Positions 661 to 46,065 of a stretch of 64,000 bases of DNA are shown here, piece by piece. The DNA is taken from contig NC_043003.1 of assembly GCF_006345805.1 (NCBI RefSeq), positions 36,022,001-36,086,000 on the forward strand, given 5' to 3'. The notes below the pieces were generated by a model. The model saw only the letters and a program-made list of their open reading frames with translations, was not told where the DNA came from and made no database searches. The stretch comes from Octopus sinensis. Taxonomy: Eukaryota. Positions within the stretch are counted from its first letter, which is position 1. Every line of letters begins with the position of its first letter. The position numbers and the translations under genes are program-made.

Positions 661-1010
661 TCAATAAATTGAGTATAAACTGTATACTTCGAATGACCAA
701 TTTTAAATACTATTGGATTTTACTCATAAGGTATTAGAATCTTATATGTATACCATCTGCCTAAAAAAAATGGATCTACAAATGCAATATCCCTACATAT
801 CTCACATCTATTTTCTTTTATTTCCTCCACCTCACTCTCTATTTTATATCTTATCTAAATTAACTATTTCTTAACCATCCTATCACACAGTCTCCGATGA
901 AGGGATATAATAAATATCCTTGAAACAGCTGTAAGACCTTCTGTCTATAAATGTTCTAAAATCTACACAGCCTTGGGTTTTTTTTATCTCATTACGAAAT
1001 TAAAATTTTT
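661..1010 (+). mobile_element. Non-autonomous Penelope-like (pLTR-type) repeat, family A, carrying a hammerhead ribozyme
   Basis: Aligns by eye to the reverse complement of 17460-17750 and to 7810-7950 and 17755-17950; flanked by TA-rich microsatellite; contains the HHR at 890-937. Confidence 0.7.
890..937 (+). ncRNA. Minimal type-I hammerhead ribozyme motif (family A, core variant CCGAUGA)
   Basis: GTCT-CCGATGA-AGGGATA(TAATAAA)TATCCTT-GAAA-CAGCTG-TA-AGAC: stem I GTCT/AGAC, paired stem II, palindromic stem III, GUA cleavage triplet; the core has a U-to-C change. Confidence 0.7.
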
Positions 1011-1831
1011 TATATACATTTATAAATATATACGTATTTCCATATACACACACACCACACAAACCCCCACACATATATTATGTTATATTATATTCATTTA
1101 TTTATAAATTTTAAGCAGGAAAATACATATGAATTAATCGAATGTAATTATCGATTAACATATATATCCACAGTCTTTCTCAACATGTTGAAAACATAAT
1201 CTAAAAGCAGAAGTTTAATTTCTACAGGAATCTAAGAGAAAAGAAATACAAATACTGAAATACCATTCATTTATACTTGGCGAAAGCGATATGCTTGAAT
1301 TCGAAATTAAACTTCTACAAGAGATAGAAGGAAATAAAGAAAAGGAAATAAAATTTAAAACAAAGGCAGAACGATGACGTAACGTATGCGGACGTAAGGA
1401 AAGTGCGCTTTTCATACACTACTAAAGGGGGAGTAAGCAAAAGATAAACTCGGTGTGAACTGAAATCGGTGAGGAGGAACAATAACAAAGAGGTATTCTC
1501 TCTGACCATCAACAACTTAAGGAGCTGCAGCCTTAATGCACGCTCACCTGCTCACGCACACACATACACACACATATACACACACATACACAGACACACA
1601 TGACATGCATATGTTATAAATATATGTATAGGCGCAAGAGTGGCTTTCTGTTTTCTAAGGCGTGTAAAAGAACTCGGAAATTTGGGCCTCTAACCAGGTC
1701 TTTCTAGATACCCTTAAAGCCAGGAACTTTGCAGCACCCTTCGTATATAAATATGTAAGTATACATTCCCCTATCTCTCTCACACACACCTTCTCTTTCT
1801 CTTTCTTTTTCTTCCTCTCTCTCTCCCTCTA

Positions 1832-3459: not shown

Positions 3460-3950
3460 TAAATATCAATCGTTTGTTGCATGTGATATCCGTTACATAT
3501 ATCATTATATTTAATAACAATTTAGGTTTTTGAACAAATACGAGAAGTAATGATTTCACAGTGAACTTATATACTGATAAGACAGTGTCTTCTTATAGAA
3601 GACATGTAAATTTCGCATTTTTTGTACAGCCGTGTTATTCGTACGGGGCGGTAGTAAGTAAATGTATTAGGGACTTTGGTAGTCTCTTTTTTATATTTTA
3701 TGTATTGCAAGTCATTTTCTCCTTCTTAGGTCTTGCTTCAGCAATTAAAGGTTTTGAAGTACGAATATAATGTCGTACGTTTTTGTATATGTTAGGTTTT
3801 GTGTTGTATGTAAGATTAATTGACGTATTTGAATTGTTTTCCGTCGTCTGTATTTCTAGAATTTCTATTACTTTGACAAGTTGTATCACCTTATCAATCA
3901 AAATTGACGGGTAACTCCAGTAGCCAAAAAGTGTGGTCGTCCTACCTGAG
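3460..3950 (-). pseudogene. Decayed Penelope-like element fragment (RT thumb/linker leading to GIY-YIG start)
   Basis: Minus-strand translation gives YPSILIDKVIQ...LTYNTKPNIYKNV, then KKRLPKSLIHLLTTAPY, then IYVTDITC. This resembles the PLE linker (YP..LID..I; KRQPK.LK.LLT.A.F; N.IY.ITC); frames are broken. Confidence 0.5.
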
Positions 3951-3989
3951 GAACTGCAATAATCTGAAAAAAAATACACATCTTATATA

Positions 3990-4530
3990 TTGAAATCAGA
4001 ACACATCTTCTCTGTCAAGAGTCACACCACGTGAAAATTACCTACACAAACAGATTCGCTGTTCATAGCCAACAAATACGAGATGCCAATGTAGACGGAT
4101 TTCTACATTGTATGTCCAAGAAAGAAGTTACCCAAATTCCTAATTTCTCCACATTAGTTTTGCTCTGAAAAAAATGACATCAAAGCAGGAAAAAATAAAG
4201 AAAACAAACTTATAAAAAATATAAACCACGAGTGAATAATCTATGACAAAATGACGAACAGATATGCATCAGGTTTCTGCCCAGAATTTTTAAACAGGGC
4301 TTGTTGTCCGCACACGAAAAATCTTCGAAAACCAAATAACAGATACTCCAAATTGAATCAAACGACAGGCTTTTTGCCTTCTTTTTACAAAACATCAAAC
4401 TGACTGATAGAAATCGGTAAAATATTAACAATGAAAATTCCACAAACGAATTTAATGACGTCACGGGTTAACTAACCAATCAGGATGGTTCATCCCGGAT
4501 ATAAGACTGCTCGAGGGCTACCAGAACAGA
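3990..4530 (+). pseudogene. Decayed PLE GIY-YIG C-terminus plus 3' pLTR-like region
   Basis: NRFAVHSQQIRDAN...KLPKFLISP...RKNKENKLIKKYKPRVN (with frameshifts) matches the GIY-YIG tail pattern R..H..QIR...KE..FI..YKP.LN. Confidence 0.6.
4456..4505 (+). promoter_or_regulatory. Compact CRE-CCAAT-TATA promoter-like module in the PLE 3' region
   Basis: TGACGTCA at 4456-4463, CCAATCAG at 4476-4483, TATAAG at 4500-4505. Confidence 0.4.
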
Positions 4531-5164: not shown

Positions 5165-5367
5165 GATATATTCCTAGGAGTATGTCGATAAAGCACGTTC
5201 ACTGTATATAGCTTCCTGGCGTCATCCAATGTAATTACACAGTTGTAGCTGGATCTAACTCAGGAATTCCTCCCTTCATGTTAAGAATACAACAAAAAGA
5301 ATAGAGACGGAAAATAGAAGACAATAAAGTTCCGAGTATTCCATTTTCCGTCTTTGTCATTTGTTCT

Positions 5368-5415
<48 letters not shown>

Positions 5416-5612
5416 TAGATGTGTGTGTGTCTGTGATATTTTGGACTAATAAGTATATGTCAATTAGAGTACTGAGCAAAGCACGTTCACTGTCTATGGC
5501 TACCTGGTGTTATCCACAGTTGGGTGATATTTCTGCTGGATCTACTTCAGGAATTCTGCAGTATTAGTTGAGATAATGATAACTGATAGAGGAAACGGAA
5601 GATTTGGCCCCA

Positions 5613-5836
5613 GTCTTTATTCTGTACAAAGATCGTTTCGACTCATCCTACAACTGTCCGATATGGGTAGAATTTTGATATATCTCATTATATATATTGG
5701 AAAATCGCCTTCTTTATGCATGTACATGATGCGACACAAACTGCACAGATTCATGCAACACTATTAGATGCAGTAAACCCTACCCACAAAGGACAGTTGC
5801 AGGATGATAAAAACGATCATCGTACCCAATAAAGAC
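5613..5836. repeat. Imperfect inverted repeat (~58-bp arms) with HHR-like remnant
   Basis: Arms 5613-5670 and 5780-5836; each reads outward as ...GGATGA(n)3-RAAACGATC...AATAAAGAC. Confidence 0.7.
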
Positions 5837-6110
5837 AAGTGCCAAATCTGTCTTTGCTCCTTCATCAGTTATATATATATATATACACACCACGCGCGTA
5901 CGTACGGATACACACACAATACACACACACACATATATATATGTATGTTATATAATATATATATATTATATATAGATATATATATATATAATATATGTAT
6001 ATGTATCTATGTAAGTATATTTATATGTATATGCATGTATGTAAGTATACAAACGTACATAGATCATATAGATACATATACATATATAAATATATATCTA
6101 TATTGTATGT

Positions 6111-6167
<57 letters not shown>

Positions 6168-7669
6168 TATGTTTCTATCTATATACATATGTATACACAT
6201 ATCTATATAAATTTATATATATAGCGTCGGGTCGACCAAAGCCTTGAATCCCTATTGAATTCAAATACCAATCAATTTTTAGTCAGCGTTCGTTTTTAAA
6301 TCTTGTTGTTGTTGTTGTTGTTCCGAGCTCCATTTTGGCTTTCATTATTTCGGGTTCGATAAAATAAGTACTAGCTGAGTACTGCACTTGGTGTCAGCGA
6401 CTAACCCACTTCTGGCATATTTCAGGCTTTGAGTCTATAGTAGAAAGGATTATTTTTTATTATTAATATTATAACTATACCATAAAGTCTCTTTGAGAGC
6501 CAATGCTGAGTTTAAATCTAACATTATAATGATATTCAAATAGGATATGTCTAATGATCTACGAAGTATTGTCTTTAAAGGCCAGAAAGATAATTGTCAT
6601 AAAAAAACTATCGGTAATAATTTAGTAAAACTTTACACTCCTACCTGTATTTCTTTGAAAGAATTATACATTTTCTACAATGAATGGGTTGTCATGCATT
6701 TACTTCTATTTACTGCAGCAAACACTATTCTGTAATTTTAAAACTTGCAAGCTACTAGCTTATACACAGTACAGCAACTGCGAAGTCGAAATAGTTTAAT
6801 GATATTTACTGTGAAATGAAAAACAGCTAAGAAATGCGTAAATAACAATAATATGTGTGATTTGATAAATTACTAATATGACTCTATCAAAAGACAGCAA
6901 TATCTGTTTTTACACACGATTTCAAATGAAATCTCTAGGCAAAATATCAATTCCTTTGTGTGATGACTAAGAAAAACTGTGCAGGCTTGCAACAACATGT
7001 TGAGAGAAAAACAGATGATTGAAGAGAGTAATATCACAGGGGAAATATGTTCCGCAATTCCAGTAAGTTATAATCATTTTTGAGTAGAAATTTAATTATT
7101 AAGTAGTTTAATGTTTTATTGGAAAAGTCAAAGTGAACTCTGTCAAATATTGATTTCTAGCATAGGCAGAACGCATCGTATAAAGAAATGGGTATAGTCC
7201 ATTATATTAACCCTGGTATTTAATTTGTATTTCATTTCATCAAACCTGGAACGATGAAAGGGAAATTCCACCTCAGCGGGATTTCAATTCAGAACACTTT
7301 TAAATATTTGTTAAACGCATGCTTAGGGCAACGCTTTGTAAAGGTAGGATATATAGGCACGTATTAAGAAGAAATATGTTGTGAATAAAGCATATGCGAT
7401 CAAATGTAAACAGAGAAGAAATCAGTTTCAACCCATGGTAATTCTCTGGTCTTTTATGTATTTGGAACTCTGCCTGTACCATAGTAAACGTGCCGAAATG
7501 AACTGTTTTACATCAACTACAATCGTGAAACGCTATGTAAAAGCATTATATTTATAGGTCTGCTCGTCTGGCCAGTGGTGTGGCGTTGTATGAAAACTAC
7601 AAGAACGCGAGAAAGCGCATTATTACTGTCGTATACATAGCAACATTCGAAAGTCTGGTCGATAAAGTC

Positions 7670-7705
<36 letters not shown>

Positions 7706-7712
7706 GACTTAT

Positions 7713-7768
<56 letters not shown>

Positions 7769-7865
7769 GTGTGTGTGTGTGTGTTGTTGTGTGTAGATAG
7801 ATAGATTGACAGAATGAAATAAAAAATCCATGGTGTGTTAGTTTCAGAACATTTTTAAAGAGAAT

Positions 7866-7913
7866 GTCTTACAGCTGTTTCAAAGATATTTTTTATATCC
7901 TTTCATCAGAGAC
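7866..7913 (-). ncRNA. Minimal type-I hammerhead ribozyme (family A, canonical core)
   Basis: Reverse complement reads GTCT-CTGATGA-AAGGATAT(AAAAA)ATATCTTT-GAAA-CAGCTG-TA-AGAC. Confidence 0.85.
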
Positions 7914-8674
7914 GGTGCGAGAAAATATATGAACAAGATTTTTCTCAGTCTCATCATTCAGAAGACGTTATGGTAATAATGAAGTTTTCCACGTATTATG
8001 CAGTAGGTCATACAAAAAAACCCAGTTATAACTTAAAACACAGCAAACGACATGTGCAATAAGCTATGCAACGGCTAGATTTTGGAAGATATGATTATTT
8101 TCTATGCGATTTAATTGTCTAGTTTGATTTGTATTTTATGATTATTAGAGTTTCCATAATCATTATTCTTTTGTGTCCGTGTGTGTAATCTTATACAAAA
8201 TTTTAATTCACACCATTCAAAAAAAAAAAGAAAATTAAGAACTTTATTTTGCATAAAAAACAGAAAAGTTTACTTTAAGAATTAAACATACGGAATCTTA
8301 AAATATACCTGAGAGGAAATTCTCTCCTCAATAGGAATCGAAATGGACAGATAGAACGAAAAGGTGACAAAAACGAACGGTGAAAAAAATCCTCTGATGA
8401 ACATAGAGAAGGATGCAGAAGACCAAGAGAATCGTCACTGACAAGTAAGCGGCCAAACGAAAAAAAGGGGTTTGCACAGAAACAGGAGAATGGTCACAGA
8501 TCACATGGTAGTAGAATGACTGAGAAAAAGAGATGGAGGGCAGAAAGACAGAATGCAGCAGAGAGGTAAGTTGTTGAAAGAGGGAAATAATAAGTTTCAA
8601 AAATTAAGCGTTAAGACGACAAGGGTACCAACGGAAAATTCAGACACAAGATCGGTTCCTGCTTCCTTCTCTAC

Positions 8675-9147
8675 TTTCAATGGTTTCCCTTCATTGTAGA
8701 ATTAATAGTCTAGACTATTTAAGCATTTTCTCTGATCGAATTCATCCTATGGTTGCGGAACTGTTTCCGGGGGAAAACGCAATCTTTCAAGATGATAATG
8801 CATGGATTCACACAGCTAAAGTTGTTACTGAATGGCACGAGGAACATTCTAGGAAAGTTGAACATCTTATTTGGCCACTACAGTCCCCAGATTTCAATGA
8901 TATTGAACATTTAGAAAAACAAGTAAAGAGTCGATACCCTCCAGCATCATCACTACAGGAACTAGAGACTGTTTTAGCTGAAAAATAGGCAAAAATTCCT
9001 TTAGAAGCAATTCAAACGATTCAAATTTGTACGAATCCATACCTCGTAGAACTCAATTTGTAATTACTGACAAAGACGGTCGTACCCCATATTAAAATAA
9101 ATTTGTTTGAAATTTTGAGGTGTTTCCATTATTTTGTCCAACGCCTG
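8675..9147 (+). mobile_element. Tc1-family transposon 3' fragment
   Basis: FQDDNAWIHTAKVVTEW...WPLQSPDFNDIEHL (DD34E region); ends in TIR GGTGTTTCCATTATTTTGTCCAACGCCTG, shared with 16255-17371. Confidence 0.9.
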
Positions 9148-9178
9148 CATGCATGCGCATATATATATATATGTGTGT

Positions 9179-9478
9179 GTGGAGGCGCAATGGCAGCGGA
9201 CTCGCGGTCATAGAATTACGGTTTCGATTCCTAGACTAGGCTTTGTGAGTATTTATTGAGCGAAAACACCTAAAGTTGCACGAGGCTTCGGCAGGGGGTG
9301 GTGGCAATCCCTGCTGTACTCTTTCGCCGCAACTTTCTCTCACTCTTTCTTCTGTTGGCCTGCTCGCTTAGCCAATGGGGTGGCGTCATTTAAAGGCTAA
9401 AACAACGAGAAACGCAATGTGACCAGCGATGTGTAGCAACATCTGATAGCCTGGTCGGTCACGGTGATCACGGTGATA
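9179..9478 (+). mobile_element. tRNA-derived SINE
   Basis: tRNA-like head with B-box GGTTTCGATTCC; head and core shared with 12000-12313; ends in (CACGGTGAT)x2. Confidence 0.8.
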
Positions 9479-9486
9479 TATGTATG

Positions 9487-9673
9487 TATTAGAAGAGGTA
9501 CTCAGAAATCTGGATGGTTTTTATATTTACAGATATTTATTAGTATGTTACATGTTTTTATAAATCATATATCATATATAAAGCGCTTTCGTCCACTCTA
9601 GTGGAGTCTTCAAATTGAACTAGCTAAAAATATAAAACCATCCAGATTACTGAGTACCTCATTTCTTCTAATA
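9487..9673. mobile_element. MITE-like inverted repeat enclosing a degenerate minus-strand HHR
   Basis: Arms ~9487-9527 and ~9627-9673. Reverse complement of 9581-9613 reads TTGAAGA-CTCCAC(TAGA)GTGGAC-GAAA-GCGC-TT. Confidence 0.65.
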
Positions 9674-9741
9674 TATAATACCTGTACATCATCTCCAAAC
9701 CTTCCAATATATATATATATATATGCATGTATGTGTGTATG

Positions 9742-9795
<54 letters not shown>

Positions 9796-10886
9796 CATAA
9801 GATGCAGATGTATGTAAGTGTATACATATACATGGGTGTGTGTGTCTGTGTCTGTGTGTCTGTGTGTAAATGCACACGCTGTTACAGAAAACAGTCAAAC
9901 CCACACATAGATAATACGAGCGCTTCTCCACTCACGCGCACATACACGCGTATTCATACAGATGCACGTGCGCACTTCAACACGATTTCATTCATCCATA
10001 CATTTCCTACGCACGACAATGTCACTATGAACCCTATTGAGATACCAACGCCATCTTTTCTAATTTTCATTTGGAGAAACACTGTTTATTGCTGTACCGC
10101 TATAATCATAGTGTCTCCTTTTTACGTGAATTCGCAGCCAAATCAGTCTCCGCGTTTTTCTAATACAACCCTGTGGGTTTTTAGGGAGATGAGGCTGATT
10201 CCATTCTTTTAAACACGTCAACATATACATTTTTTCTTAAGTATGATTAGGTCCGGTTTCTTTTGATCTCTACCATTTCCTCATTGCCTCTCCGCATTTA
10301 GAGACATTATATCCAATAAGATCTCTATAACACAATGTATATCGGTGTATGGAGAACTCAAAGAAATCTTGTCATGTACATAAGCGCACATTCGAATGCA
10401 CGCCCGTATCAATCTATGTGAATGTAGGATGAGGTGTGCTTGTGTGTGGTTGTGCGTGTTTGTGTCCGTGTGTGCGTGTGTGTCTGTGTGTGTGTGTGCG
10501 CGCTCGTGCTTGTGAAAATACAGTTAGACGCATAGATACAAAAGCAAATACTCTGGCATACGTTGACATATACAAGCTTTACTATGTACATACGAACATA
10601 CAGACACAGAAATATTCACATACACATATACATATGTATACGTGCATACAAATATATGTATATATATACGTACATACAAATATACACATGTATACATGTA
10701 TATAGATGTATATATATATATGTATACATATATATACTCATATATATATGTATGCATGTATGCATATATAGGCATGTAAGTAAATATATATATACTTATA
10801 TATATTTATATATATATACATATATACATATACATATGCATAAATGTATATACATATATATACATATATACATAATACATACCTTA

Positions 10887-10923
<37 letters not shown>

Positions 10924-10962
10924 CATACACAAACTCACACACACACACACATACACACACAT

Positions 10963-10995
<33 letters not shown>

Positions 10996-11008
10996 CATAC
11001 ATATATAC

Positions 11009-11376
11009 GCGCAGGAGCTTGCGTACCAACCACATGGTTCCGGGTTCAGTCCCACTGCGTGACACCTTGGGCAAGCTGCTCCTCTGGCCTCGGGCCGACC
11101 AAAGCAGTGGATCTGGTAGACGGAAACGGAAAGAAGCCCGTCGTATATGTATGTGTGTATGTGTGTGTTTATATGTTTGTGTTTGTCTCCACAACTTCAC
11201 TTGACGACCGCTGCTAATGTATTTACGTCCACGTAACTTAGCGACTCGGTAAAAGAAACCGATAAAATAAGTACTTGACTTACAAAGAATAAGTCCTGGG
11301 GGCGATTTGTTTGACTAAAGGCTGTGCTCCAGCTTGGTCGCAGTCAATGACCGAAATAAATAAGAGAATAAAAGAA
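11009..11376 (+). mobile_element. tRNA/CORE-like SINE with internal microsatellite
   Basis: B-box CGGGTTCAGTCCC; CORE-like GACACCTTGGGCAAG; same family as 50613-51060 and 60928-61388. Confidence 0.85.
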
Positions 11377-11396
11377 TATATATATGCACATATATA

Positions 11397-11663
11397 TTAA
11401 TAATAATGGTAAGACAACAAAATAAAGAAGGAAACCTCGAAACTATGTAAATAAAGGAATTTATTTGTAATGTAATATGTGACAATTATTCGGTTGCCAT
11501 AATAAAACTCTGAGTTTCGCATGACGGGGCGGAAACTTGCACCGCATCCAGGCAATTGAATTATTTTAATTGCCTCAATAACTGAAGAGATGCCGATGCA
11601 GGTTTCCGCCCAGACGTCCGAAACACGGAGTTTTATAATGGCAACAGAATAATGGTCGCATAT
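11397..11663. mobile_element. Fold-back element with HHR-like motif (long stem II)
   Basis: Inverted arms 11475-11548 and 11589-11663. The plus strand reads ATAA-CTGAAGA-GATG...CGTCC-GAAA-CACGGAG-TT-TTAT; the other arm has GAAA-CTCAGAG-TT. Confidence 0.65.
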
Positions 11664-11808
11664 GTGTGTATATATATATATAGATACATACATATTAATA
11701 CATCATACATACATATATATATATATATATATCTATATATATATATATATATGTATGTAGTATGTATGTATATATAATATATATGTAGTATCTATATATA
11801 TATGTAAC

Positions 11809-11839
<31 letters not shown>

Positions 11840-11999
11840 CTATAATATATATATATATATATATATAATATATTATATAATCTATTATATATATATATAT
11901 ATATACATATTACATATGTTGGAGCACTACCGTGTTTGTATATTTATTTAGATGTATCTATCTAGCTATCTGGCTCAATTTCTCTTTTTCTCTCCTTTA

Positions 12000-12313
12000 C
12001 TTTTATTTATTTGTACGCCCTTTTCAAGCCTAGCCAGGCTCATGGGCCCTGGTTTCTGTGGCGTATGTGTTCCCTCCACCTTGGACGGGACGCCATTCCA
12101 TCGCAGCGTTACACAAGAAGCAGGAAGAAAGAGGAGTGAGAGAAAGTTGGGGTGAAAATGTACAACAGGGGTCGCCACCACCCCCTACCGGAGCCTCGTG
12201 GAACTTTTAGTTGTTTTCGCTCAATAAATACACAATACCCGGACAGGTAATCGAAGCCACGAACCTTCCAACGCGAGTCCGTTGCCCAAACCACTGGACC
12301 TTTGCGCGTCCAC
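12000..12313 (-). mobile_element. tRNA-derived SINE with V-domain-like 3' part
   Basis: Head and core match 9179-9350; then GCTGCGATGGAATGGCGTCCCGTCCAAGG, resembling the V-SINE domain as recalled; (AAAT)n tail. Confidence 0.75.
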
Positions 12314-12544
12314 TTTTCTCTCGTTAGGCATATAATATACTTGTATATAAGCACTCATTCACACACACGCTCGCACACACACACACTCACTCACACACAC
12401 ACATATATATATACAGATATATATACATATATACTTATATGTACATATATACTTATATGTACATATATTATATATATGTATATATATATATTATACATAT
12501 ATGTGTGTGTGTGTGTGTTGTGTACATATATATACACATATACA

Positions 12545-12728
12545 TATACGAAAGGGTTCTACGAAAAGATACAAAAATTTGCTCGGGAGAGTATTCAAGT
12601 GTAATATAAACTTCGCAAATATTTCCTTCGGGTAAAACCACCAATTGAAGAGAATATGACCCCCCAAAAAAAAACTGCGTGCACTCCATCCTATGCAGCT
12701 GTGGTAGGTTATACCAAGGCGAAACGGG
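12545..12728 (+). pseudogene. Penelope/Poseidon-type GIY-YIG endonuclease fragment
   Basis: YTKGFYEKIQKF...LRKYFLRVKPPIEENM...NCVHSILCSCGRLYQGETG (frameshifted); matches PYVKGLSEKI...VY.IPCSCG..YIGETG. Confidence 0.8.
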
Positions 12729-12800
12729 CATTTGGCGTAGCGGTTAAGAGCGCGGTCTACTAACCCCAAGAATCTGAGTTCCATTCCAGGCAGTGACCTA

Positions 12801-12841
<41 letters not shown>

Positions 12842-12910
12842 GAGAAGAAGAAGAAGAAGAAGAAGAAGAAAAGAAGAATATCTAAAATACCTTAAGAATG
12901 AGGACCCAGA
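12728..12910 (+). mobile_element. tRNA-like SINE head followed by (AAT)n(AAG)n
   Basis: A-box TGGCGTAGCGG and B-box-like GAGTTCCATTCC; no complete cloverleaf. Confidence 0.55.
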
Positions 12911-13035
12911 ATGAGGGAATCAGACTGAGATAGAAAGAGGGATAAGGAAAGAGATGGATCGATAAAGATATGTATATATACACACACATATATATACAGA
13001 GTAGGAGAGAGAGAGGGAGGGAGAGAGAAAGTATT

Positions 13036-13090
<55 letters not shown>

Positions 13091-13934
13091 GCGTGTGTAT
13101 ATACACACATAAACATACTCACATTACTAAATAGATAGAGAGGCAGACACATGTACCGACGGATCGACAGCTAGTCAGACTGATAGCTACTTAGATTGTA
13201 CGGAACAGGAAAATATCTATAATTTCATTGTTAAAATCCTGCGGTGTTTTCTTTATTCAAATTCTTTTGAATTCTTCAACCCAACGCATGTGAATTTTCT
13301 TTCGGTTCTTTCAACCATTATATACCATCATATACGCTGGTACAAACTGACATAAGGTGTATACATAAGGTGTATACTTAAGTATAATTGTGTTTATATG
13401 TGTGAATGTGTCTCATAAATGTGTTTGTATGTGTACGTATGTATATAGACCTACCTACATAGATTTATATACATCCATCCATACATCGCTATATGTATGT
13501 ATATACACACACATCCTTCAATGTTTCCTATGTATTTATATATCTATCTATCTATATATATATATATCTAAAGATAGATCGATCCATACGTCTCCTTTTT
13601 TTCCTCTTTATCCGCCTCACTCTTTCCTTGTGCGTGTGTCTGCATATATATACATACATACATACATAATATATATATATATATATCATATATATAGATA
13701 TATATATAATATATATATATAATATATATATATACAGACCATACATACATAAATATATATATACATACATTATATATATATATAATATATATGGGAGAGA
13801 GAGAGAGATGTATATGTATATACATATATATATATTTACATATGTATATACAAATATAGACACATACACACACACACACACATATAAAGAGGCGTAAATA
13901 AAGCTGAATGATTCTTCTGTATCCGTCTTCCTTC

Positions 13935-13986
<52 letters not shown>

Positions 13987-14083
13987 GTTCTCTACCTTTT
14001 TCTCATTCACACACATATCTTTATACAAATGCATGTGCAGGTCAATAGATTACGTACGTCTATGTATGCATATACTTATATAT

Positions 14084-14140
<57 letters not shown>

Positions 14141-15232
14141 TTCTGTGTGTTGTGCGTGTGTTGTGTGTGTGTGTGTACATATACATGTGTGTATGTGAGT
14201 GTGCGTTCGTATTATCGAAAAGCTTCAGACTCAGACCAAACAATAGAAAAGCGATTCCTATTGTCATTGCGCATTTCTTGCAATCGTCCCTTGGCGTTAA
14301 ACGATATCGCCATTTTTGTGAGAGGGTTAATTAAAGAATAACCACATCTTCGCTTGGATCTTTACCAGGAATAAGGTTAAGACAGTTACACAAAGATGTT
14401 TGAAACCAAAAAAAGAAGAAGGAAAAAAAGAATAGAAAAGGAAAACAAATGTAAAGTATAAATACATACTAGAGATAAAAACAAAACAAATGAATATACA
14501 AACTACATTTATTTGTAACATATTCATCTATTTAGCTAATTTATTTTTTCCATCCAAAGAGATTTTTGTAAAGAATTCGCCTTCAGCTAAATTAAGCATA
14601 AGGCTACAGTTTTGTTCCTTTTAATGGAAGTGTCCTTTTCTCTCTCACTTTTCTCCCATTCTATATCCATTTTTGCTTCCTTCATTTCATCCTTCTTTTC
14701 CTTCTTTCCTTCAATTTTTATTTCTTTCATTTTTCTTTCTTGCTTGCTTGCTTTCTATCTATATTTCTTTCTATCTCTATTTCTTTCCTTCCTTCTTTCT
14801 TTCTTTCTTTGACACCTCACTATCTCTGCCTGCACATATCTTCCCATTTTTCTTTCTCAGTAAATCAATTTCCCCCCCTTCAAACTCTTTTAACGCACAC
14901 ACGCACACACACATACACACCCACACACAGTCGTGAGCAACGTTTCAGTGAAACGTTTGCTTTACACTTAGCTACACAAGACATTTTTATGTCTTGTATA
15001 TATATATACATACATATATACTTATATGCACAAACACAAAACCTTTTATACATATATATAATAGATCTATTATATATATATATATATATAATATATATAT
15101 ATACCTACATACATAAATATAAATAGCACACTAATAATTATATATATGAGTGTATATACATGCATATAATGAATTTATATATATATATTTATATATATAT
15201 ATATAATATATATAATTATTATATTATTATTA

Positions 15233-15267
<35 letters not shown>

Positions 15268-15395
15268 ATATATACTTAATGTATATGCATCGTGTCCAAG
15301 AATCTGAAGTGTTTTATACCCAGCGTTTTGAGGGTATATATATTGCACCACGCAACTGCAGACACGTGAAAATACATAAAGCATATCCTACAGCA

Positions 15396-15431
<36 letters not shown>

Positions 15432-15712
15432 CATTTATATATGTATACATGCATATGCACACACATGCATACTTATATATTTGAATATAAATTGTCTGTA
15501 TGCATAAATATAATTATAGTAATAGAAAATCTGATAAGAACGTAAATATATAGTAATAGAAAAATGGATAAGAACGTAACGGATGACAATAAAAACATAC
15601 GGACAGATAGACGATACAATGACAGACAGGAAGAATTAGGACAGATCCTTCATGGCCTTCTATTCATCATAAAGCCTCCAATTATCATTACAGTTTCGGC
15701 CATCTATACTTA

Positions 15713-15785
<73 letters not shown>

Positions 15786-15911
15786 GATTATATATATATA
15801 TATTGTTATATTTCGGAATGGTCATATTGCCAGTTTATATGGCCTATAATCCAAACTATATAATCCAAACTATATATATATAGTTTGGATTAACTATATA
15901 TATATATATTT

Positions 15912-16107
15912 AATCCAAACAAGAAAGCATAAAAAACACAACGCGAGACGTGGAACAAATATAGTATTATTGGACGCTCAGGAAAGAAGGAAGAACGAGG
16001 TTTTAACGTTTCGAGCGGAGCTCTTCGTCGGAACAATAGGAGAAGGAAAGATCCAGAGAAGGAAAGACATACGAAAAAAAGTTTCCAACGGTAACACACG
16101 AGGTCAC
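15912..16107 (-). mobile_element. pLTR-type repeat family D with HHR-like motif at 16001-16034
   Basis: Reverse complement of 58366-58575; minus strand reads CCGACGA-A-GAGC(TCC)GCTC-GAAACGTT-AAAA; flanked on both sides by (TA)n. Confidence 0.65.
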
Positions 16108-16185
<78 letters not shown>

Positions 16186-16254
16186 ATATGTGTGTTGTGT
16201 GTGTGTGTGTGTGTGTCTGTGTGTGTGTGTGTGTGTTGTGTGTGTGTATACATA

Positions 16255-17371
16255 CAGGAGTTGGTTAAAATAATGGAAACACCTTTGGCAGCAATTGCAG
16301 CTGGAATTCTACAAGGTATGGACTCGTACAAAGTTTGAATTGTTTCCAAAGCTCTTGTAGTGATGATGGTGGAGGATATCGACTCCTTGTTTTTCTAAAA
16401 TGCACCGTAAATGTTCAATAATATTGAAATCTGGGGACTCTGGTGGCCAGATAAGATGTTCAACTTTCCTAGAATGTTCCTCGTGATATTCAGTAACAAA
16501 CAGGATGAATAGGAGGAATTCGATCTGATAAAATGCTTAACTAGTCCTGACTATTAATTCTGCCATGAAGAGAAACCATTGGGTCGGCGGATTTCCAAGA
16601 TATAGCCCCACCCCCAATCTTCAGGTATCCGCCTCCGTTTTTAACCGCTAGAAGAACACAGTCTGGAGCAAATGCTTCTTGTGGCTGTCTCCACACGTAT
16701 ACTTGGCCGGTGGTCGGAAATAAGGTAAAGGATGACTCGACCGAGAAGATTCTTCCACTGCTCTAGGGTCCAATACTGTAGGTTTTTACTCCACTCTAAA
16801 CGCTTTCTAGGGGGTTTCAGATTGCAGCCCACCTGTGAAATCTAGCTTTGTGCAGCTCCCGGCGGACAGTTTTTGTGGAAACTGGGTTCTCGAGGTGGTC
16901 ATTAATCTCTACAGTAATTTTGTGATCCTTTCTAAGAATTTGCGTAAGAGTCCCACGGTCCCTATCGGAATTTTTTATTTTCTTCGGGAGTTTTCTCAAA
17001 GGCTGTCATTAGTTTTGACACAGTTCTTCTTAATACATCAAATATATCGGCTGTTTTCCTTACGCTAGAACCTGCCATACGTGCACCAACAATTTGACCT
17101 CTTTGAAAGTCCGATAGATCTGTCATTTTAATGAATTTTAATTCCTGGTTTTGTGATGATATCTGAAAAGAAACAGCAATTTTAGTAAAACATATAGAGC
17201 AACACTTATAATAAATAAAAAATCAATTAAATTAAACAAGCTTTTGACGGATTTATAGATATTTTCAAATAAAAAATAAATATAATTAATCAAGCTTTTG
17301 ACGGATTTAAAGATATTTCAAAATTATGATGCTATGATGCTAGGTGTTTCCATGATTTTGTCCAACATCTG
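16255..17371 (-). mobile_element. Tc1-family transposon with both TIRs, internally deleted
   Basis: TA target duplications at 16253-54 and 17372-73; ~30-bp TIRs CAGNNGTTGGNNAAAATNATGGAAACACCT; transposase starts MTDLSDFQRGQIVGARMAG at 17126, with PVSTKTVRRELHK and WTLEQWK motifs; frameshifted. Confidence 0.93.
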
Positions 17372-17459
17372 TATATACAAATATATGTACATACAGACTC
17401 ACACACACACACACACACACATACACACATACACACACCACACACACACACACATACAT

Positions 17460-17950
17460 ATTCAGAAATAGATAAAAATCCAAGGCTGTGAAAGATTTTA
17501 GAACAGTTAGAAATAGAAGGTCTTACAGCTGTTTCCGAGATATTTTACATATCCCTTCATCGGAGATGGGTAACCAATAGTCATTTTAGATAAGATATGA
17601 AGTAGAGAGTGAAGTGAAGGAATGAAAATAGACGTGAGATATGCAGGGATATTTCAACTGTAGATCCATTATTTAGGCAGAATAGTATACATATATGATT
17701 CCAATACCTTGTGATTAAGTTCCAGTAGTATTTAAAACTGGTCATATCACTGCAAATCTTACGTTTCCTTTCATTCCTCCAATTCACTCTCTATTTCGTT
17801 TCTTATCTAAAACAACAATTGCTTAACCATTTTCTCACACCGTCTCCGATGAAGGGATATATAAAATATATTCCGGAAACAGCTATATTTATAAATGTTC
17901 TAAGTTCTTCCACAGCCTTGAACTTTTATCTCATTCAGAAAAGAACTTTT
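17460..17950. mobile_element. Family A pLTR pair in inverted orientation, each with an HHR motif
   Basis: Minus copy 17460-17750 (HHR 17520-17567) and plus copy 17755-17950 (HHR 17842-17886, 3' side damaged). Confidence 0.8.
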
Positions 17951-18237
17951 TATATATACACATGCTGATATATGACCTACTTTGGTCTTCTCATTCGCAT
18001 AATCACCGAACCTGGAGCTTAACTATAGACTGTCCATAGCACTTACTCACCATTCCCTGACACCTTTGGGTCTTATCGACAACATTACCTCTCTCATAAC
18101 CTCTCTCTCTCTCTCTCTCCTTCCTCTAATTAATTTTAGCCTTTATTATTATTGATAATATATATATATATATATATTATATCACACACACACACACACC
18201 ACACCCACACATATATATATCTATATATATATATATA

Positions 18238-18271
<34 letters not shown>

Positions 18272-18359
18272 AAAAAGAAAATGGAGGAACAAATTCTAAC
18301 TGATATCCCATAGTGGTTACCATCATAACCCCTATCTTACCTTGTACTATATATATATA

Positions 18360-18540
18360 TTATCAATAAGAATAAAGGTTAAAATTAATTAATTTACTAG
18401 TAATCAATAATTTCACCAAGTAGAATTTGGCATGAATTAGAAGAAATAGCTAAGGTTCTTTGGCTGCTATTTCTAAACTTCGGTATGTGGTAAAGCAAAT
18501 CTTTGCTGAACCCTAATTATAATAATACTCCTAATTATAA
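18360..18540 (-). repeat. Interspersed repeat family G (also 1875-2035 +; tail also at ~18128-18160 +)
   Basis: Shared TAATTAGGGTTCAG...TTTACCACA.ACCGAA...AATAGCAGCCAAA...TTAGCTATTTC...AATTAATTTT..CC.TTATT..TATTGA, next to (TA)n. Confidence 0.6.
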
Positions 18541-20761
18541 AATATTGTATATATATAAATATATACAAAGATTTACCTCAATTATATTTTCCTGACCCAT
18601 TCTCTTATTAACTATTTAACTCACTACTGCGATTAGTGTGGTACCTCTTTTCAAAATAGTCCCGTCAAGTTCATTTAACAGAAACATGATATTTCATTGT
18701 CGCAAACATTGTCTTTGCTATAGTTTGTAACCACGGATGAAGCTACCGAAAAAAGTTAAACAGAATGGTTACATCTGCAACGCTTTTAACTGTTGGTATT
18801 CCTAGATAGGTCCTACCTAATTATATACAACAACACCAACGGGCAATATATACCACATTCTTGGTTTCATTGACGTCGGTGCCGTAGCTGTCGTTGTCGT
18901 CATCAACAAAATCATCAAGATCATAGTGCATCTAATTTAGGAGTATCTAAGTTATGACGACCTGGTCATATTTTGAATTCAGTCCATGGTCTCCGGACAA
19001 ACCAGTAGGGACCGTTTTTCATATAACGTTATTTGGATCGTTGCTACAACTGGTAACGTTTTGATAATATGAATAAACTCGATGAATGTTGATTATCAAT
19101 ACAAAATAAGAGAAAGCTTTTATGTATTATACGTTATATTTCAGATATTCTATTTACGCTTGCAGTCATCAACACGCACGGTTCCATGCGCACACGCACA
19201 CATACACATACACACCCACACCCACACCCACACGAACACATACATACATGCATACATTCATACATATATGCAAACGTGCATATATACCTACTCCTCTACA
19301 AAATGTACAAAATCTCTTTGTAGAATCTGCTCGGAGTAGCGATAAAATCTAAGTAATGACGGAACGATTCTTCATCTACTGAGTGTTTTTCCACCCATTT
19401 CGCTAACTCCTCATCGCCTGATGACATCGAATTGAATTGGGAAACGACAGGATAAAGAAAAATGATTTAGGCTTTTGAATAATATGATGACTGGTGGACA
19501 AGATTCAGTTCAACATAATCACTTTCAACATCACATTCCTTCAACGTTATAAATATATGTCTATTCATATTATACTAGCACCTGTTTTATTAATACGTGA
19601 TAACTAGAGCATACGCTGATCCGAGATAATGATTTAATCTTTTGTTACTTAACCTAATACATCAGGACTGGTGATGTGTGTCATTTGCAACCACTCAGCT
19701 GATCCAGGTTTTGAACTGGTATTAGAGACATCTAAACAGAAATATTTTCGAATGCAAGTAAGATTCTGGCTATCTCTAAAGCGCACGTTAATTCAGTAAC
19801 TGAACATTGTATTTAAGTGAAAGTCACTAAATTTATAATTCCATTTCTACCTTATAAATAGGATCGGTTTTTCGAATAACAACACTAGAGAGAGAGAGAG
19901 AGAGAGAGAGAGTGTGTGTGTGTGTGTGTGTGTGCGGAGGGGGATGCATGCTTTTGTGTATGTATGTTTAAGCCAAACATTTCAACTTACATAGGTATGT
20001 CTTAATCTGCCGTCGTTTCGATTAGCAAGCTTTCAGAAAAGTAAACTTAGACAACAATATATTTCAATAACATTGCTGGAAAATTTCATGTATGCGAAGA
20101 AATAAAGTTCAAGGAAAAAAGAAAATAAAAAGAAATATTTCGAAGTGATAAGTTCTCAGGTTGAATCATACACAACAATATGCAAACATAAAAACACCAA
20201 TTCCACAGAAATACCGATAGCCAGAAGAGACCGGAAACTAACCACGCAAAAAGACAAAAAGGCAGATTCTGCATTGATCAATATGGCTTCATATTTCTGA
20301 AGACAATATTATAGTATGTTTTGTTTTGTTTTGTTTTTCTCTGCTCAATATACATATTTTTGTTTTTTGGCATTATACATTGAACATGAAAATAATATAG
20401 GAGATTATATAGAAGTAAATGTCTGCAGTAAAAATAAAGAACAAAAGAGATAAATAGATGAACGGATGAAAGTTTGTGCGTGTGTGTGTGTGTCTATTTG
20501 TGTTGTGTGTGTGTGTGTGTGTGTGTGTTGTGTGTGTGTGTGTGTTTGTCGTGTGTGTGTGTGTGACTGCGCATATATAAACAAAGACACACATGCACAC
20601 GTGTATAAATATACACAACTGTAACATATATGCGAAAGTATATACATGTCTCTGCGCTTGTTTGTGTGTATATGCATGCGTGCGTGTGTGTGCGCGTGCG
20701 TGTGCATGTGTGTGTGTGTGTGAATGTGGATGGAGGTGCATGTGTGCTCCTTTATATACAT

Positions 20762-20812
<51 letters not shown>

Positions 20813-21068
20813 TTTATTACTTCTTGGACTGCTAGAATGCATTTCCTAATAGACTTTGTTAATTGATACTCCTTTACACATAATCTGTGTGTCTGCATGT
20901 ATGTGTACATGAGTATACATGGGCATTTTTGCGCATGGGTGCATATGTGTATCTGAATAAGTCTAAAATGGCAAATTGATAGACTCGTCAAACTGCTGAA
21001 TACAACGTCATGGGGTTCAAATTCGGCTAAGATTAAAAAGAAAAAAATACCTGCCCAGATGATGTCAC

Positions 21069-21352
21069 TCACCGGTACTCCGTCGGATACGACGACAAAT
21101 GTTCCAGTTGATAAGATCAAGAGAACAGCTTGCTCGTGAAATTAACTTGCAACGTACCCTTAAAGTAAATCTCAGGGAGAATCGGTGTGACGCAGAATAG
21201 GAAAAGGATGGCACTTTTGAGTTAGGTACAACTCAGTTTTGTAGCTGAGTGGACTGATGTAACGTGAATGAAGTGTCTTGCTCAAGGACACAACGGCGTC
21301 GCCGGAAATTGAACTGACGACCTTACGATCGTGAGCCGATTACCCTAACCAC
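21069..21352 (-). mobile_element. tRNA/CORE-like SINE (second family)
   Basis: Minus strand GTGGTTAGGG...AGTTCAATTTCC...TTGTGTCCTTGAGCAAGACACTT; decayed relatives at ~54965-55152 and ~59530-59665. Confidence 0.75.
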
Positions 21353-21863
21353 TTATTCATGCAGACTGGTGAAATTATTAGATCATTCAGTGGGATGTCT
21401 TCGGTTTTGTGTACCGAGTCCGTATGTTCTAACAGCAGCGCCTACAATGAGAATATTGGCAATCAACATCGGTCTTGCCTTTCTCGTGGATGAAACGGGA
21501 GAATTTTCCAGGCCAAAAATGCATTGGAATGGAAGATCTTAGGTGCAGATGTTCAGACAAAGTATTAGAGAAGGCAATAGCACTTGCAGCACTTGCACAC
21601 AAATAATTCTGCAACTCTGTGAAGGGTCTGGATGATTCCTGAGTATTAAAAGAGAACATACTCACACACGGATATATATATATATATAATAATAAATATT
21701 AGGGAATAAATCCAAATTTACGGGAAAAAATCAGATTTAGGATTAAATCCTTTTATAGTAAAAATTTATAAAATATTATTAGAGAACAAACCACTATTTT
21801 GCAAAACAAACAAGGAAAGACTTAATCAATACATAAAATTTTAATAAATAGTCAAAAAAACCG

Positions 21864-21907
21864 CCACTACAATTGTTTCTTGTCTTGACTCGACAATCTT
21901 CAGGTGG
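21864..21907 (-). ncRNA. Minimal type-I hammerhead ribozyme (family C)
   Basis: Reverse complement reads CCAC-CTGAAGA-TTGTC(GAGTCAA)GACAA-GAAA-CAATTG-TA-GTGG. Confidence 0.88.
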
Positions 21908-23269
21908 ACTTCCAATCTAAAATATCAATATTTTAAAATATAAAAATAATAATTTTAAAATAATTAAAGTATGAACGAAAAAAATAAATATATAATCCAT
22001 ATATAACCTATATATAATCCATATATAATCAATATATAACAATATATAAACTAAAATAACCTATCAACAATTAAATATAAAATATTATTTTTAATTCCAT
22101 TTATTCCATTTTCTCCATTCATTATTTTAAAAGATGTTCGTTTCCAGAGCGGTTATACTTTTTATACATATGTTAAGTTCCTTGTAAAGTAATTTTGTTG
22201 GTGTATATGTTGAGGCTTATATGTACTTGTGGGTGTGTGTGAGTGGGGTGGGTTTTTGTATTTGTTATGGGTGTGTGGTTTACGTGTGTGTATTTGTGGT
22301 GGATGTATAGGTAAAGGGATTGCTATATAAGTATGTTATAGTGTTTAGTAAAGGGAGTTTTATCATTTATGTTTTGTGAGTTTTAGCTTATCATGGTGTT
22401 TTATAAAAGAATCCATTCATAATTTTGTGTTTATTTGTCTGTGTGGGGTTGAGTGGGTTTTTGGAGTATATGTTGAGGTTTATATGTATGTATAAGGTAT
22501 GTGTAAGTGGTGTGGGTATTTGTATATGTCGTGGGGTGTGTGGTTTACGTGTGTGTATTGTGTGTGAATGTTTAGGTTAGGGGGATTGCTATATAGGTAT
22601 GTTATAGAGTTTAGTAAAGGGAGATTTTATCATTATGTTTTTATGATTTTGGTTTATCATGGTAGGTTTGTTGAGGATTCGTAGTAATTTGTGTCTATTT
22701 GCGATGTCTGTTGTTTTATTGCATTGTTTCATTCATAATTTTTAAGTAGTGTTCGTTTTACCAAGTGAATATAATTTTTAATTCCATTTATTCCATTTCT
22801 CCGTTCATAATTTTAAGTGATGTCCGTTTTCTAGAGCGTGAATGTGGGTTGTATGTGTTTGTGTGTGGGAGTATGAATAACTATTGTGTTGAAGTATTTA
22901 GCTATTTATTATTTATAGTTGCCTAGACGTTTTTATGTGTATGTATAGGGTTATATATATAGGGGTGTGATTTAGTATGTAGTTAGATATGGTTATATAT
23001 AATTAGGTATATGTGTATGGGTGTATATATAGTTTATTATTATTTTATTATTATTTTTTGTTTTGTTTTATATTTTATATTTTATATTTTATATTTTATT
23101 AATTGTTGATAGGTTTATTTTAGTTTATATATTGTTTATATATGATTTATTATATATGGATTATATATGGGTATATATGGATTATATATTATATTTTTTC
23201 GTTCATACTTTAATTATTTTAAAATTATTATTTTTATATTTTAAAATATTGATATTTTAGATTGGAAGT

Positions 23270-23312
23270 CCACCTGAAGATTGTCGATCAAGACAAGAAA
23301 CAATTGTAGTGG
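23270..23312 (+). ncRNA. Minimal type-I hammerhead ribozyme (family C)
   Basis: CCAC-CTGAAGA-TTGTC(GATCAA)GACAA-GAAA-CAATTG-TA-GTGG: all three stems pair, the core is canonical, and the triplet is GUA. Confidence 0.9.
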
Positions 23313-23399
23313 CGGTTTTTTTGACTATTTATTAAAATTTTATGTATTGATTAAGTCTTTCCTTGTTTGTTTTGCAAAATAGTGGTTTTGTCTCTAATA

Positions 23400-23446
<47 letters not shown>

Positions 23447-24049
23447 CATATATATACTTTTATATATAGAACTACACAGACAAGACACCACACACTCACA
23501 CACACACACACACCACACCACACACACACACACACACCACATATATATATATTATTATTAAAAAAAGGGATTTTACCAATAGAACTGCAATTCCTATTTC
23601 AAGACAATTGTATGGAATACAGATAAAAAGTTATTCCCAATAAAATAATAATAATAAAATAATATAAGCATTTAAAACCCCTACTATAAACTGCAATAAA
23701 TTTATTTGAAAAATATTTGAAGAAATATATATAACGTACCTGTTATAAGTCTGTGAAGAAAGAAGAATTTTTTAATCAAAGGTACACGTAATTCTGCGCC
23801 GGTGGAGTATTTATTAAGCATATGCCTAATACATAAATCCACTACTGCGTCCTCAGACTATTTATCTTATTGTTATTATTATTAATGGATCAAAGTTAAA
23901 AATACATATTGTAAGTCATATTAGATAGAAAAATCAGAATATGAATAAAAATATAATAAAAATATATAAATTACAAATATATTAACATTTTTTAATTTAA
24001 AAAATTAAAAATTTAAACACCTAAAATTACAATAACGATATATGTAGTG

Positions 24050-24087
<38 letters not shown>

Positions 24088-24096
24088 CTATATATG

Positions 24097-24145
<49 letters not shown>

Positions 24146-24363
24146 CCGGAGTAAACACATAAATGTGAAACAAGGTGGAAAAAAGAGTACTCAAATACCG
24201 TGGTAGATGCTTTATTTTAAGCAGCAGAAAATTCAACAAAATCTGTTACTCTGAGTTTCTCGTTGCCGTTCATCAGACAGTTGTTGCTAGAACTGTCTGA
24301 TGAACGGCAACGAGAAACTCAGAGTAACAGATTTTGTTGAATTTTCTGCTGCTTAAAATAAAG
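24146..24363. mobile_element. 218-bp fold-back element, family B: perfect 73-bp inverted repeat with an HHR on each strand
   Basis: 24210-24282 is the exact reverse complement of 24291-24363 (8-nt loop). HHR CTGT-CTGATGA-ACG(GCAA)CGA-GAAA-CTCAGAG-TA-ACAG at 24293-24330 (+) and 24243-24280 (-). Confidence 0.88.

Positions 24364-45792: not shown

Positions 45793-45848
<56 letters not shown>

Positions 45849-46027: not shown

Positions 46028-46065
<38 letters not shown>

What the first reader, a model, noticed from the sequence alone, without database searches (positions are those of the whole stretch)
5613..24363. Recurrent ribozyme fold-back architecture: six unrelated inverted repeats built around hammerhead motifs within 19 kb
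Seen in the sequence: six inverted-repeat loci with otherwise unrelated sequence (5613-5836, 9487-9673, 11397-11663, 17460-17950, 21690-23410, 24146-24363). Each carries CUGANGA...GAAA HHR motifs or remnants oriented outward and followed by a short tail, and most end in (TA)n. In three of them one arm has a 60-80 nt extra extension. Established: Penelope-like elements carry minimal type-I HHRs in their pLTRs and often have an inverted pLTR copy. Inference: these are a diverse set of tiny, ORF-less, MITE-mimicking retroelements mobilised by PLE RT/GIY-YIG (fragments at 3460-4530, 12545-12728, 51290-51727). Repeat libraries could misfile them as DNA-transposon MITEs.
Basis: partly seen in the sequence, partly recalled or inferred. 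Interest (0 to 1): 0.78.

Follow-up and report, generated by a model that had tools for sequence, protein, structure and literature searches.

The report
Head-to-head stumps of Penelope retroelements
The six fold-backs are cut-down, head-to-head insertions of ordinary Penelope-like jumping genes (five of the six traced to protein-coding parents), and hundreds of short copies elsewhere in the genome carry a spliced leader, which shows they were copied from the element's own sense RNA and likely end at its transcription start.

Summary
The six inverted repeats are real. They are not a new class of amplifying MITE mimics. Each belongs to a dispersed family with fixed outer ends, mostly in (TA)n, and a one-sided tail. 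Five of six families join colinearly to Penelope-like reading frames; family 1 was not linked and lacks a canonical hammerhead core. This architecture is in print, and the scan found it before in other genomes.

One result goes further. The family-5 parent has an initiator-like motif, a 23-nt first exon and a 1.8-kb GT-AG intron just before the hammerhead. The genome holds 703 exact spliced junctions and 449 unspliced ones. Of 30 spliced arms, 26 stop at or before the predicted +1, while unspliced pairs lie 0.2-10 kb apart. Families 3 and 6 show similar edges at initiator-like motifs. Short hairpins are therefore likely dead-end run-off copies of the mRNA leader. This argues against an antisense-template model for Penelope inversions. 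Transcription start and ribozyme cleavage were not shown.

The parts
5437..5578 (-).
5579..5675 (-). Locus 1 tail-side arm; hammerhead-like motif with non-canonical core AGGATGA at 5643-5649
5676..5872 (+). Locus 1 short-end arm, the longer of the two at its 5' side; AGGATGA at 5801-5807; ends in (TA)n
9487..9621 (-). Locus 2 short-end arm with U3-core hammerhead variant (core 9607-9613); 3' end of a Neptune-like PLE
9628..9706 (+). Locus 2 tail-side arm, truncated below the hammerhead, plus about 30-nt tail (9678-9706)
11397..11548 (-). Locus 3 tail (11397-11474) and tail-side arm with the core deleted
11575..11663 (+). Locus 3 short-end arm with hammerhead (core 11582-11588)
17461..17745 (-). 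Locus 4 short-end arm with CCGATGA-core hammerhead (17557-17563)
17744..18110 (+).
21687..22085 (-). Locus 5 tail (21687-21753), hammerhead (core 21897-21903) and about 170 nt of unspliced intron; 95% identical to the family-5 unit L334
22081..23413 (+). Locus 5 short-end arm: 1.18 kb of unspliced intron, 3' splice AG at 23259-23260, hammerhead core 23274-23280; 5-nt overlap with the other arm
24146..24282 (-). Locus 6 tail (about 65 nt) and tail-side arm with intact hammerhead (core 24270-24276)
24291..24363 (+). Locus 6 short-end arm with intact hammerhead (core 24297-24303), ending at the family's fixed short end in (TA)n

Best explanation
Each fold-back is a single head-to-head insertion of two 5'-truncated copies of the terminal repeat of a Penelope-like retroelement (protein-coding parent found for five of six families), likely built anew at each landing in a (TA)n run. 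SHOWN: fixed outer ends (tail end and short end), variable junction, both arms from the same subfamily, colinear parent ORFs, and spliced and unspliced genomic forms of the family-5 leader. FROM THE LITERATURE: a PLE RT/GIY-YIG protein cuts AT-rich DNA on both strands and starts reverse transcription at two internal RNA sites that bound the tail. INFERRED: each nicked strand primes a cDNA, one at each start site. On promoter-initiated mRNA the tail lies only about 160-250 nt from the 5' end, so both cDNAs run off at the transcription start just above the hammerhead and are joined through short microhomology, giving a small dead-end hairpin. On unspliced or read-through RNA they stop at scattered points and give long inversions such as locus 5. 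The hammerhead is a passenger in the copied RNA, which is mostly uncleaved.
For: Family 6: in 67 position-ordered loci, 42 have an adjacent inverted arm, and 38 of 41 scorable arms end within 5 nt of the same short end. There are 17 distinct junctions in 18 two-core hairpins, the core type matches between arms in 18 of 18, and arms differ by 2.3 mismatches within loci against 5.0 between loci. The short arm reaches at least 5 nt further 5' in 17 loci, the tail arm in 9, and 16 are within 4 nt. ORF links: family 6, L218/L221, with a GIY-YIG fold for the C-terminal domain, I-TevI Z 9.7, rmsd 2.3, 89 aligned, top four rows all GIY-YIG-type nucleases. Family 5, 6.25-kb tandem unit L334, 169 homologs at E <= 1e-10 among 8000 scored. 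Family 3, L372/L369. Family 4, L398/L403/L404. Family 2, L422/L426 (Pfam GIY-YIG E 0.0014, below the cut-off). Splicing: the donor reads GTAAGT in 27 of 28 displayed long copies (30 fetched). There are 703 spliced and 449 unspliced exact junctions. Of 30 spliced arms, 26 stop at or before the A of TCACTTC, 5 exactly on it. Head-to-head gaps are <= 49 nt in 25 of 29 spliced pairs and 178-10,014 nt in 19 unspliced pairs. Family 3: 26 of 42 arms end within 33 nt of the core, 6 at 30-33, none at 34-50, at an initiator-like TCATTT. Family 6: 28 of 42 inverted arms start 5-25 nt above the core, below an initiator-like TCAGTT. Literature.
Against: The transcription start is predicted from motifs and cDNA ends, not mapped. 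Four of 30 spliced arms (one duplicated locus) run past it. Family 1 has no ORF link after three searches. In family 6, 26 of 67 tail arms stop inside or below the hammerhead, so run-off explains under half of the ends. Later deletion within palindromes could mimic unequal arms. Two loci share one junction, and three junction texts recur among score-selected copies. Pfam and PDB sequence searches do not recognise the RT pieces; RT identity rests on the YRDD motif and on unnamed homologs.
Confidence: 0.85

Rival explanations
1. Snap-back: one cDNA folds on itself at a short palindrome and is copied back until the endonuclease resolves it at the short end. Same elements, different origin of the second arm.
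For: Many junctions sit on small palindromes such as CTAG and TGCA, and both arms share subfamily type in 18 of 18 hairpins. Self-priming was proposed from such palindromes (PMC3846280).
Against: The tail-less arm reaches further 5' than the tail arm in 17 of 42 loci, by up to 1.9 kb in L044. A copy-back of the tail arm cannot give this without later deletion.
Confidence: 0.25
2. Some hairpins are non-autonomous units that are themselves transcribed and re-mobilised in trans.
For: Thousands of copies of modal size, and a score-ranked search returns many near-identical 220-230-nt hairpins. One junction occurs twice among 18, and a 20-nt gap recurs in 8 of 29 spliced pairs.
Against: The score-ranked search selects for that shape. 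Position-ordered samples give 17 junctions in 18, and the same junction occurs in both orientations relative to the tail. Modal size is explained by a common RNA 5' end.
Confidence: 0.08
3. The arms are terminal inverted repeats of DNA-transposon MITEs.
For: Inverted ends flanked by TA runs.
Against: One-sided tail, variable centre, precise intron loss and colinear RT/GIY-YIG ORFs. No transposon library was available to compare TIRs.
Confidence: 0.02
4. Hammerhead self-cleavage sets the 5' ends of the copied RNA.
For: Three tail arms end at +27, +30 and +31 and one inverted arm starts at +29, near the predicted cut at +30.
Against: That is 3 of 26 ends spread over +1 to +70, about what an even spread gives. 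The pile-up lies above the core. Uncleaved RNA was the main substrate in vitro (PMC11167929).
Confidence: 0.07

Closest known systems
Canonical EN+ PLE insertion structure (Craig et al. 2021, PMC8557442; Arkhipova et al. 2013, PMC3846280; passages seen)
   Same: Heavy 5' truncation, an adjacent inverted 5'-truncated copy, an optional one-sided tail, (TA)n targets, an initiator-like TCACT in the pLTR and palindromes at the junction.
   Different: Tails here are about 30-160 nt against 30-40 described. Most copies hold no ORF sequence. Spliced genomic copies are abundant.
Minimal hammerheads of metazoan PLEs (Cervera and de la Pena 2014, PMC4209133; parts 1-2 of 4 read)
   Same: Short stem I, palindromic stem III, U3-A8 variant; the paper already notes dual motifs 100-700 bp apart on opposite strands, probably truncated PLEs, and an intron ending next to the hammerhead in D. 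virilis.
   Different: C4 cores (CCGAYGA) dominate family 4 and part of family 6. Family 1 has AGGATGA.
PAc Poseidon element in vitro (Frangieh et al. 2024, PMC11167929; parts 1-2 of 4 read)
   Same: Both strands cut and extended, two internal RT start sites bound the tail, and hammerhead cleavage is not needed.
   Different: Start sites lie within the ORF there, but 55-70 nt before the ATG in families 5 and 6. Inversion formation was not tested in the parts read.
D. virilis Penelope promoter and 5' intron (Schostak et al. 2008, PMC2377424; passages seen)
   Same: Internal promoter with initiator, a short first exon and an intron in the leader.
   Different: Intron is 75 bp there and about 1.8 kb in family 5.
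Animal non-LTR retrozymes (bioRxiv 10.64898/2026.07.22.740005; part 1 of 5 read)
   Same: ORF-less, type-I hammerhead, PLE-derived.
   Different: Retrozymes are head-to-tail tandem units; these are head-to-head one-off insertions.

Membership tests
EN+ Penelope-like elements | ORF with RT followed by a C-terminal GIY-YIG endonuclease, colinear with the repeat | tested here: met
   Families 2-6. Fold shown for family 6 only; RT by motif and unnamed homologs.
EN+ Penelope-like elements | The same, for family 1 (locus 1) | tested here: inconclusive
   No colinear ORF in the family-1 loci searched; old family, +-1.5 kb flanks.
EN+ Penelope-like elements | Tandem units forming pLTRs, tail running into the ORF start | tested here: met
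   L334 (6.25-kb tandem), L218, L404.
EN+ Penelope-like elements | Inverted 5'-truncated copy with one-sided tail | tested here: met
   All six loci and their families.
EN+ Penelope-like elements | (TA)n target bias | tested here: met
   Tail-end flank scored TA in 28, 24 and 24 of 30 loci for families 6, 5 and 3.
Nematis / Neptune clades | Placement in an RT phylogeny with reference elements | not tested
   Clade names are recalled from motifs. A Cys-rich linker before the endonuclease is present, as described for both clades.
Minimal type-I hammerhead | CUGANGA/GAAA/UH core with stems I-III | tested here: met
   Families 3, 5 and 6 canonical; family 4 with C4; family 2 with U3, U3-A8 in 16 of 34.
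Minimal type-I hammerhead | Core in family 1 | tested here: not met
   AGGATGA or a near variant in nearly all readable copies; no CTGANGA.
Minimal type-I hammerhead | Covariation in stems | tested here: inconclusive
   Family 3, 25 rows: 90.4% of cells paired against 30-55% slid; 6 pairs with two-sided change, 102 of 500 shuffles as high. Stem I differs in sequence but pairs in each of families 3-6.
Minimal type-I hammerhead | Self-cleavage | not testable with these tools
   Needs a bench assay.
Non-autonomous amplifying unit (MITE or retrozyme) | Copies share one fixed internal structure | tested here: not met
   17 junctions in 18 hairpins; arm lengths from under 100 nt to several kb.
DDE-transposon MITE | TIR match to a known transposon and a discrete TSD | not testable with these tools
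   No repeat library is held; a TSD cannot be read inside (TA)n.

The most novel reading that the evidence does not exclude
This genome keeps a record of which RNA a Penelope-like element copies. Spliced, promoter-initiated mRNA yields only short dead-end head-to-head hairpins that stop at +1, because priming occurs at the tail upstream of the ORF. Only longer, mostly unspliced templates yield ORF-bearing copies. That would exclude the antisense-template model for these inversions, help explain why surviving PLEs retain introns, and let PLE transcription starts be read from genome sequence alone.
Probability: 0.6. Interest if true: 0.62.

Novelty: new member of a known kind. Interest (0 to 1): 0.4.

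Why it matters
The finding as flagged is a known PLE insertion pattern. It still matters for annotation: thousands of short hairpins per family will look like MITEs. The spliced copies bear on an open question. One paper proposed an antisense template to explain head-to-head inversions and intron retention and could not exclude an unspliced sense template; another calls the significance of intron retention unknown. Precise intron loss in both arms of head-to-head hairpins shows a sense, spliced template for those copies.

Tried and rejected
Rfam scan: no hammerhead among the 150 listed matches. Pfam on ORF pieces: nothing above cut-off. PDB sequence search: none. Single-sequence fold was poor, pLDDT 41. 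Foldseek gave no match at E <= 0.001, though GIY-YIG chains led the weak rows. A first tblastn with mixed pieces was swamped by SINE-like flanks. An exact pattern from locus 3 hit only the window copy. Score-ranked DNA searches looked like fixed units; I rejected this as selection bias once position-ordered loci were read. An ORF near L215 is unrelated to family 5. Sequencing runs: no holder is on record as RNA. Contigs of four runs guessed to be RNA cover the intron; one contig in X6 joins the donor to exon 2 and runs upstream of the predicted +1. Cap-derived G: 4 of 5 arms ending at +1 are preceded by G, but in 3 it can come from the other arm, so it is not counted. No intron was seen in families 3, 4 or 6. 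Literature searches for spliced or intronless genomic PLE copies listed no paper describing them; subscription journals and supplements were not seen. Rows dropped: L038 and L050 (same loci as L037 and L049), L263 (not oriented), L045 and L052 (spurious inverted hits), L044 (short end outside the locus), L294 (overlaps L293). Pair gaps were read by eye from the first 100 listed hits of each search.
Full report
Observation. All six inverted repeats are present and above chance, and they are unrelated to one another. Intact type-I hammerheads occur in both arms of loci 5 and 6; a strict descriptor gives 6 window hits against 0.01 in shuffles. Loci 3 and 4 pass a relaxed descriptor. Locus 2 has a U3 core in one arm. 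Locus 1 has AGGATGA, as do most readable relatives.

Families. The window lies in a 2.72-Gb animal genome, G000; its repeats look cephalopod-like to me, which is recalled and unverified. Exact tail patterns hit 4029 places for family 6, 3373 for family 5 and 1943 for family 3. Score-ranked searches return hairpins shaped like the query, so I used position-ordered pattern hits as the fair sample.

Fixed ends, variable centre. In family 6, 70 loci were fetched and 67 analysed; 42 have an adjacent inverted arm. Of 41 scorable inverted arms, 38 end within 5 nt of one short-end site. The centre varies: 17 junctions in 18 hairpins with both cores. Both arms share the core type in 18 of 18 and are closer to each other than to other loci, 2.3 against 5.0 mismatches. 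Either arm can be the longer one: the short arm in 17 loci, the tail arm in 9, within 4 nt in 16. Inversions also fall inside the ORF, as in L219 and L221. Families 1-5 show the same pattern on reading.

Parents. Family 6: in L218 the tail runs into an ORF with an RT motif, an endonuclease, a 3' UTR and a second hammerhead. The C-terminal domain, modelled at pLDDT 88, matches GIY-YIG nucleases best, with I-TevI at Z 9.7, rmsd 2.3, 89 aligned; Foldseek found nothing significant. Family 5 is a 6.25-kb tandem unit (L334) with 169 homologs of mostly about 700 aa, many marked PF26215 or PF28514 and almost none named; locus 5 matches it at 95%. Family 3 is colinear with an ORF in L372 and L369, family 4 in L398, L403 and L404, and family 2 in L422 and L426. 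Family 1 stayed unlinked. The labels Nematis-like (families 3-6) and Neptune-like (family 2) are recalled from motifs; no tree was built.

Why the hairpins have a modal size. Short family-5 hairpins carry a different sequence above the hammerhead than long copies. The difference is an intron. L334 has TCACTTC at 3424, a 23-nt exon, a donor GTAAGT, about 1.8 kb of intron, an acceptor TTTTAG 13 nt above the core, the tail and an ATG at 5539. The donor is intact in 27 of 28 displayed long copies, from a query that favoured unspliced ones. The genome holds 703 exact spliced and 449 unspliced junctions. Of the first 30 spliced arms, 26 stop at or before the A of TCACTTC and 5 stop exactly on it; the other 4 belong to one duplicated locus that runs further upstream. 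Head-to-head gaps are at most 49 nt in 25 of 29 spliced pairs, and 178-10,014 nt in 19 unspliced pairs. Locus 5 itself is an unspliced case, with both arms broken inside the intron. Family 3 shows an edge at 30-33 nt above the core and no end at 34-50 among 42 arms, at TCATTT. In family 6, 28 of 42 inverted arms start 5-25 nt above the core, below TCAGTT. Reading these motifs as initiators rests on recalled consensus and on a TCACT initiator-like motif reported in a rotifer pLTR.

Mechanism. A PLE protein cuts and extends both strands of AT-rich DNA and starts at two internal RNA sites that bound the tail, on mostly uncleaved RNA (PMC11167929). I infer that the two nicked strands each prime a cDNA, one per site. 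On promoter-initiated mRNA both run off at the 5' end and join by microhomology; on longer RNA they stop at scattered points. Twin priming is preferred over snap-back because the tail-less arm is often the longer one, but later deletion could mimic this. Ends do not pile up at the predicted cleavage site: 3 of 26. Against the reading: 26 of 67 family-6 tail arms stop inside or below the hammerhead, the start site is unmapped, and RNA evidence is one contig from a run only guessed to be RNA.

Hammerhead structure. In 25 family-3 rows, 90.4% of cells pair against 30-55% for slid controls, but the number of covarying pairs is not above shuffles, 102 of 500. Across families 3-6, stem I differs in sequence and still pairs. 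Family 2 shows the U3-A8 variant in 16 of 34 motifs, a variant already described.

Comparison. The inverted truncated copy, the tail and the (TA)n bias are described for EN+ PLEs (PMC8557442, passages; PMC3846280, passages). Opposite-strand hammerhead pairs 100-700 bp apart were noted in 2014 (PMC4209133, parts 1-2). A leader intron is known from D. virilis Penelope (PMC2377424, passages). Retrozymes are tandem rather than head-to-head (bioRxiv 2026, part 1). An octopus repeat annotation lists active Penelope-like families and MITEs but does not mention ribozymes (PMC13282606, passages). Searches listed no paper on spliced genomic PLE hairpins; paywalled papers and supplements were not seen. 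Earlier AI notes of this scan report similar palindromic stumps and a pile-up above the core in other genomes; I consulted them after forming this reading, and none of those shown reports a spliceosomal spliced leader.

Unexplained. The family-1 motif is unexplained.

Verdict. Real, and a known architecture of PLE families new to this scan; not a new element class. The spliced-leader record is a modest, testable addition to PLE mechanism. Interest 0.4.

Noticed in passing
window 659-1031 and 7794-7926: Two more family-4 arms with intact-looking hammerheads (cores at 894 and 7909).
   Followed up: partly
window 15909-16107, 58370-58572, 60536-60672: A seventh, very common repeat with a hammerhead-like motif (CTGACGA...GAAACGTTA) and its own tail, in (TA)n; 10 hits in 0.55 Mb of flanks. 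Parent not sought.
   Followed up: partly
window 5190-5269: A second, partial family-1 tail just upstream of locus 1.
   Followed up: no
window 3460-4530, 12545-12728, 51309-51717: Decayed PLE-like ORF pieces. Only the last gave a measured match; Pfam found none.
   Followed up: partly
window 40979-41944: 321-aa open frame that looks like a LINE-type reverse transcriptase fragment.
   Followed up: no
window 42608-42720 / 43971-44082, 39087-39222, 45807-46059: Other inverted repeats with no canonical hammerhead hit.
   Followed up: no
window 8678-9075 / 16283-16581: Two related pieces of another repeat, possibly a DNA transposon remnant, in opposite orientation 7 kb apart.
   Followed up: no
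L332:7400-7717, L336:6100-6400: The family-5 ORF has an asparagine-rich stretch between RT thumb and endonuclease, like the N-rich inserts described for rotifer Penelope elements.
   Followed up: no
L139 and L424, upstream of the family-2 repeat: A coiled-coil-like reading frame with a 'W..IY..W...P.LPRKF' motif is joined to the family-2 3' region; it may be the N-terminal part of that element.
   Followed up: partly
L337:7351-9900: 850-aa open frame resembling a DNA polymerase B of Polinton type (recalled), abutting a family-5 copy.
   Followed up: no
L217:460-1100: About 620 nt of unrelated sequence captured between two spliced family-5 arms.
   Followed up: no
L358-L361: One duplicated locus with spliced junctions that run upstream of the predicted start, so read-through RNA can be spliced and copied.
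   Followed up: partly
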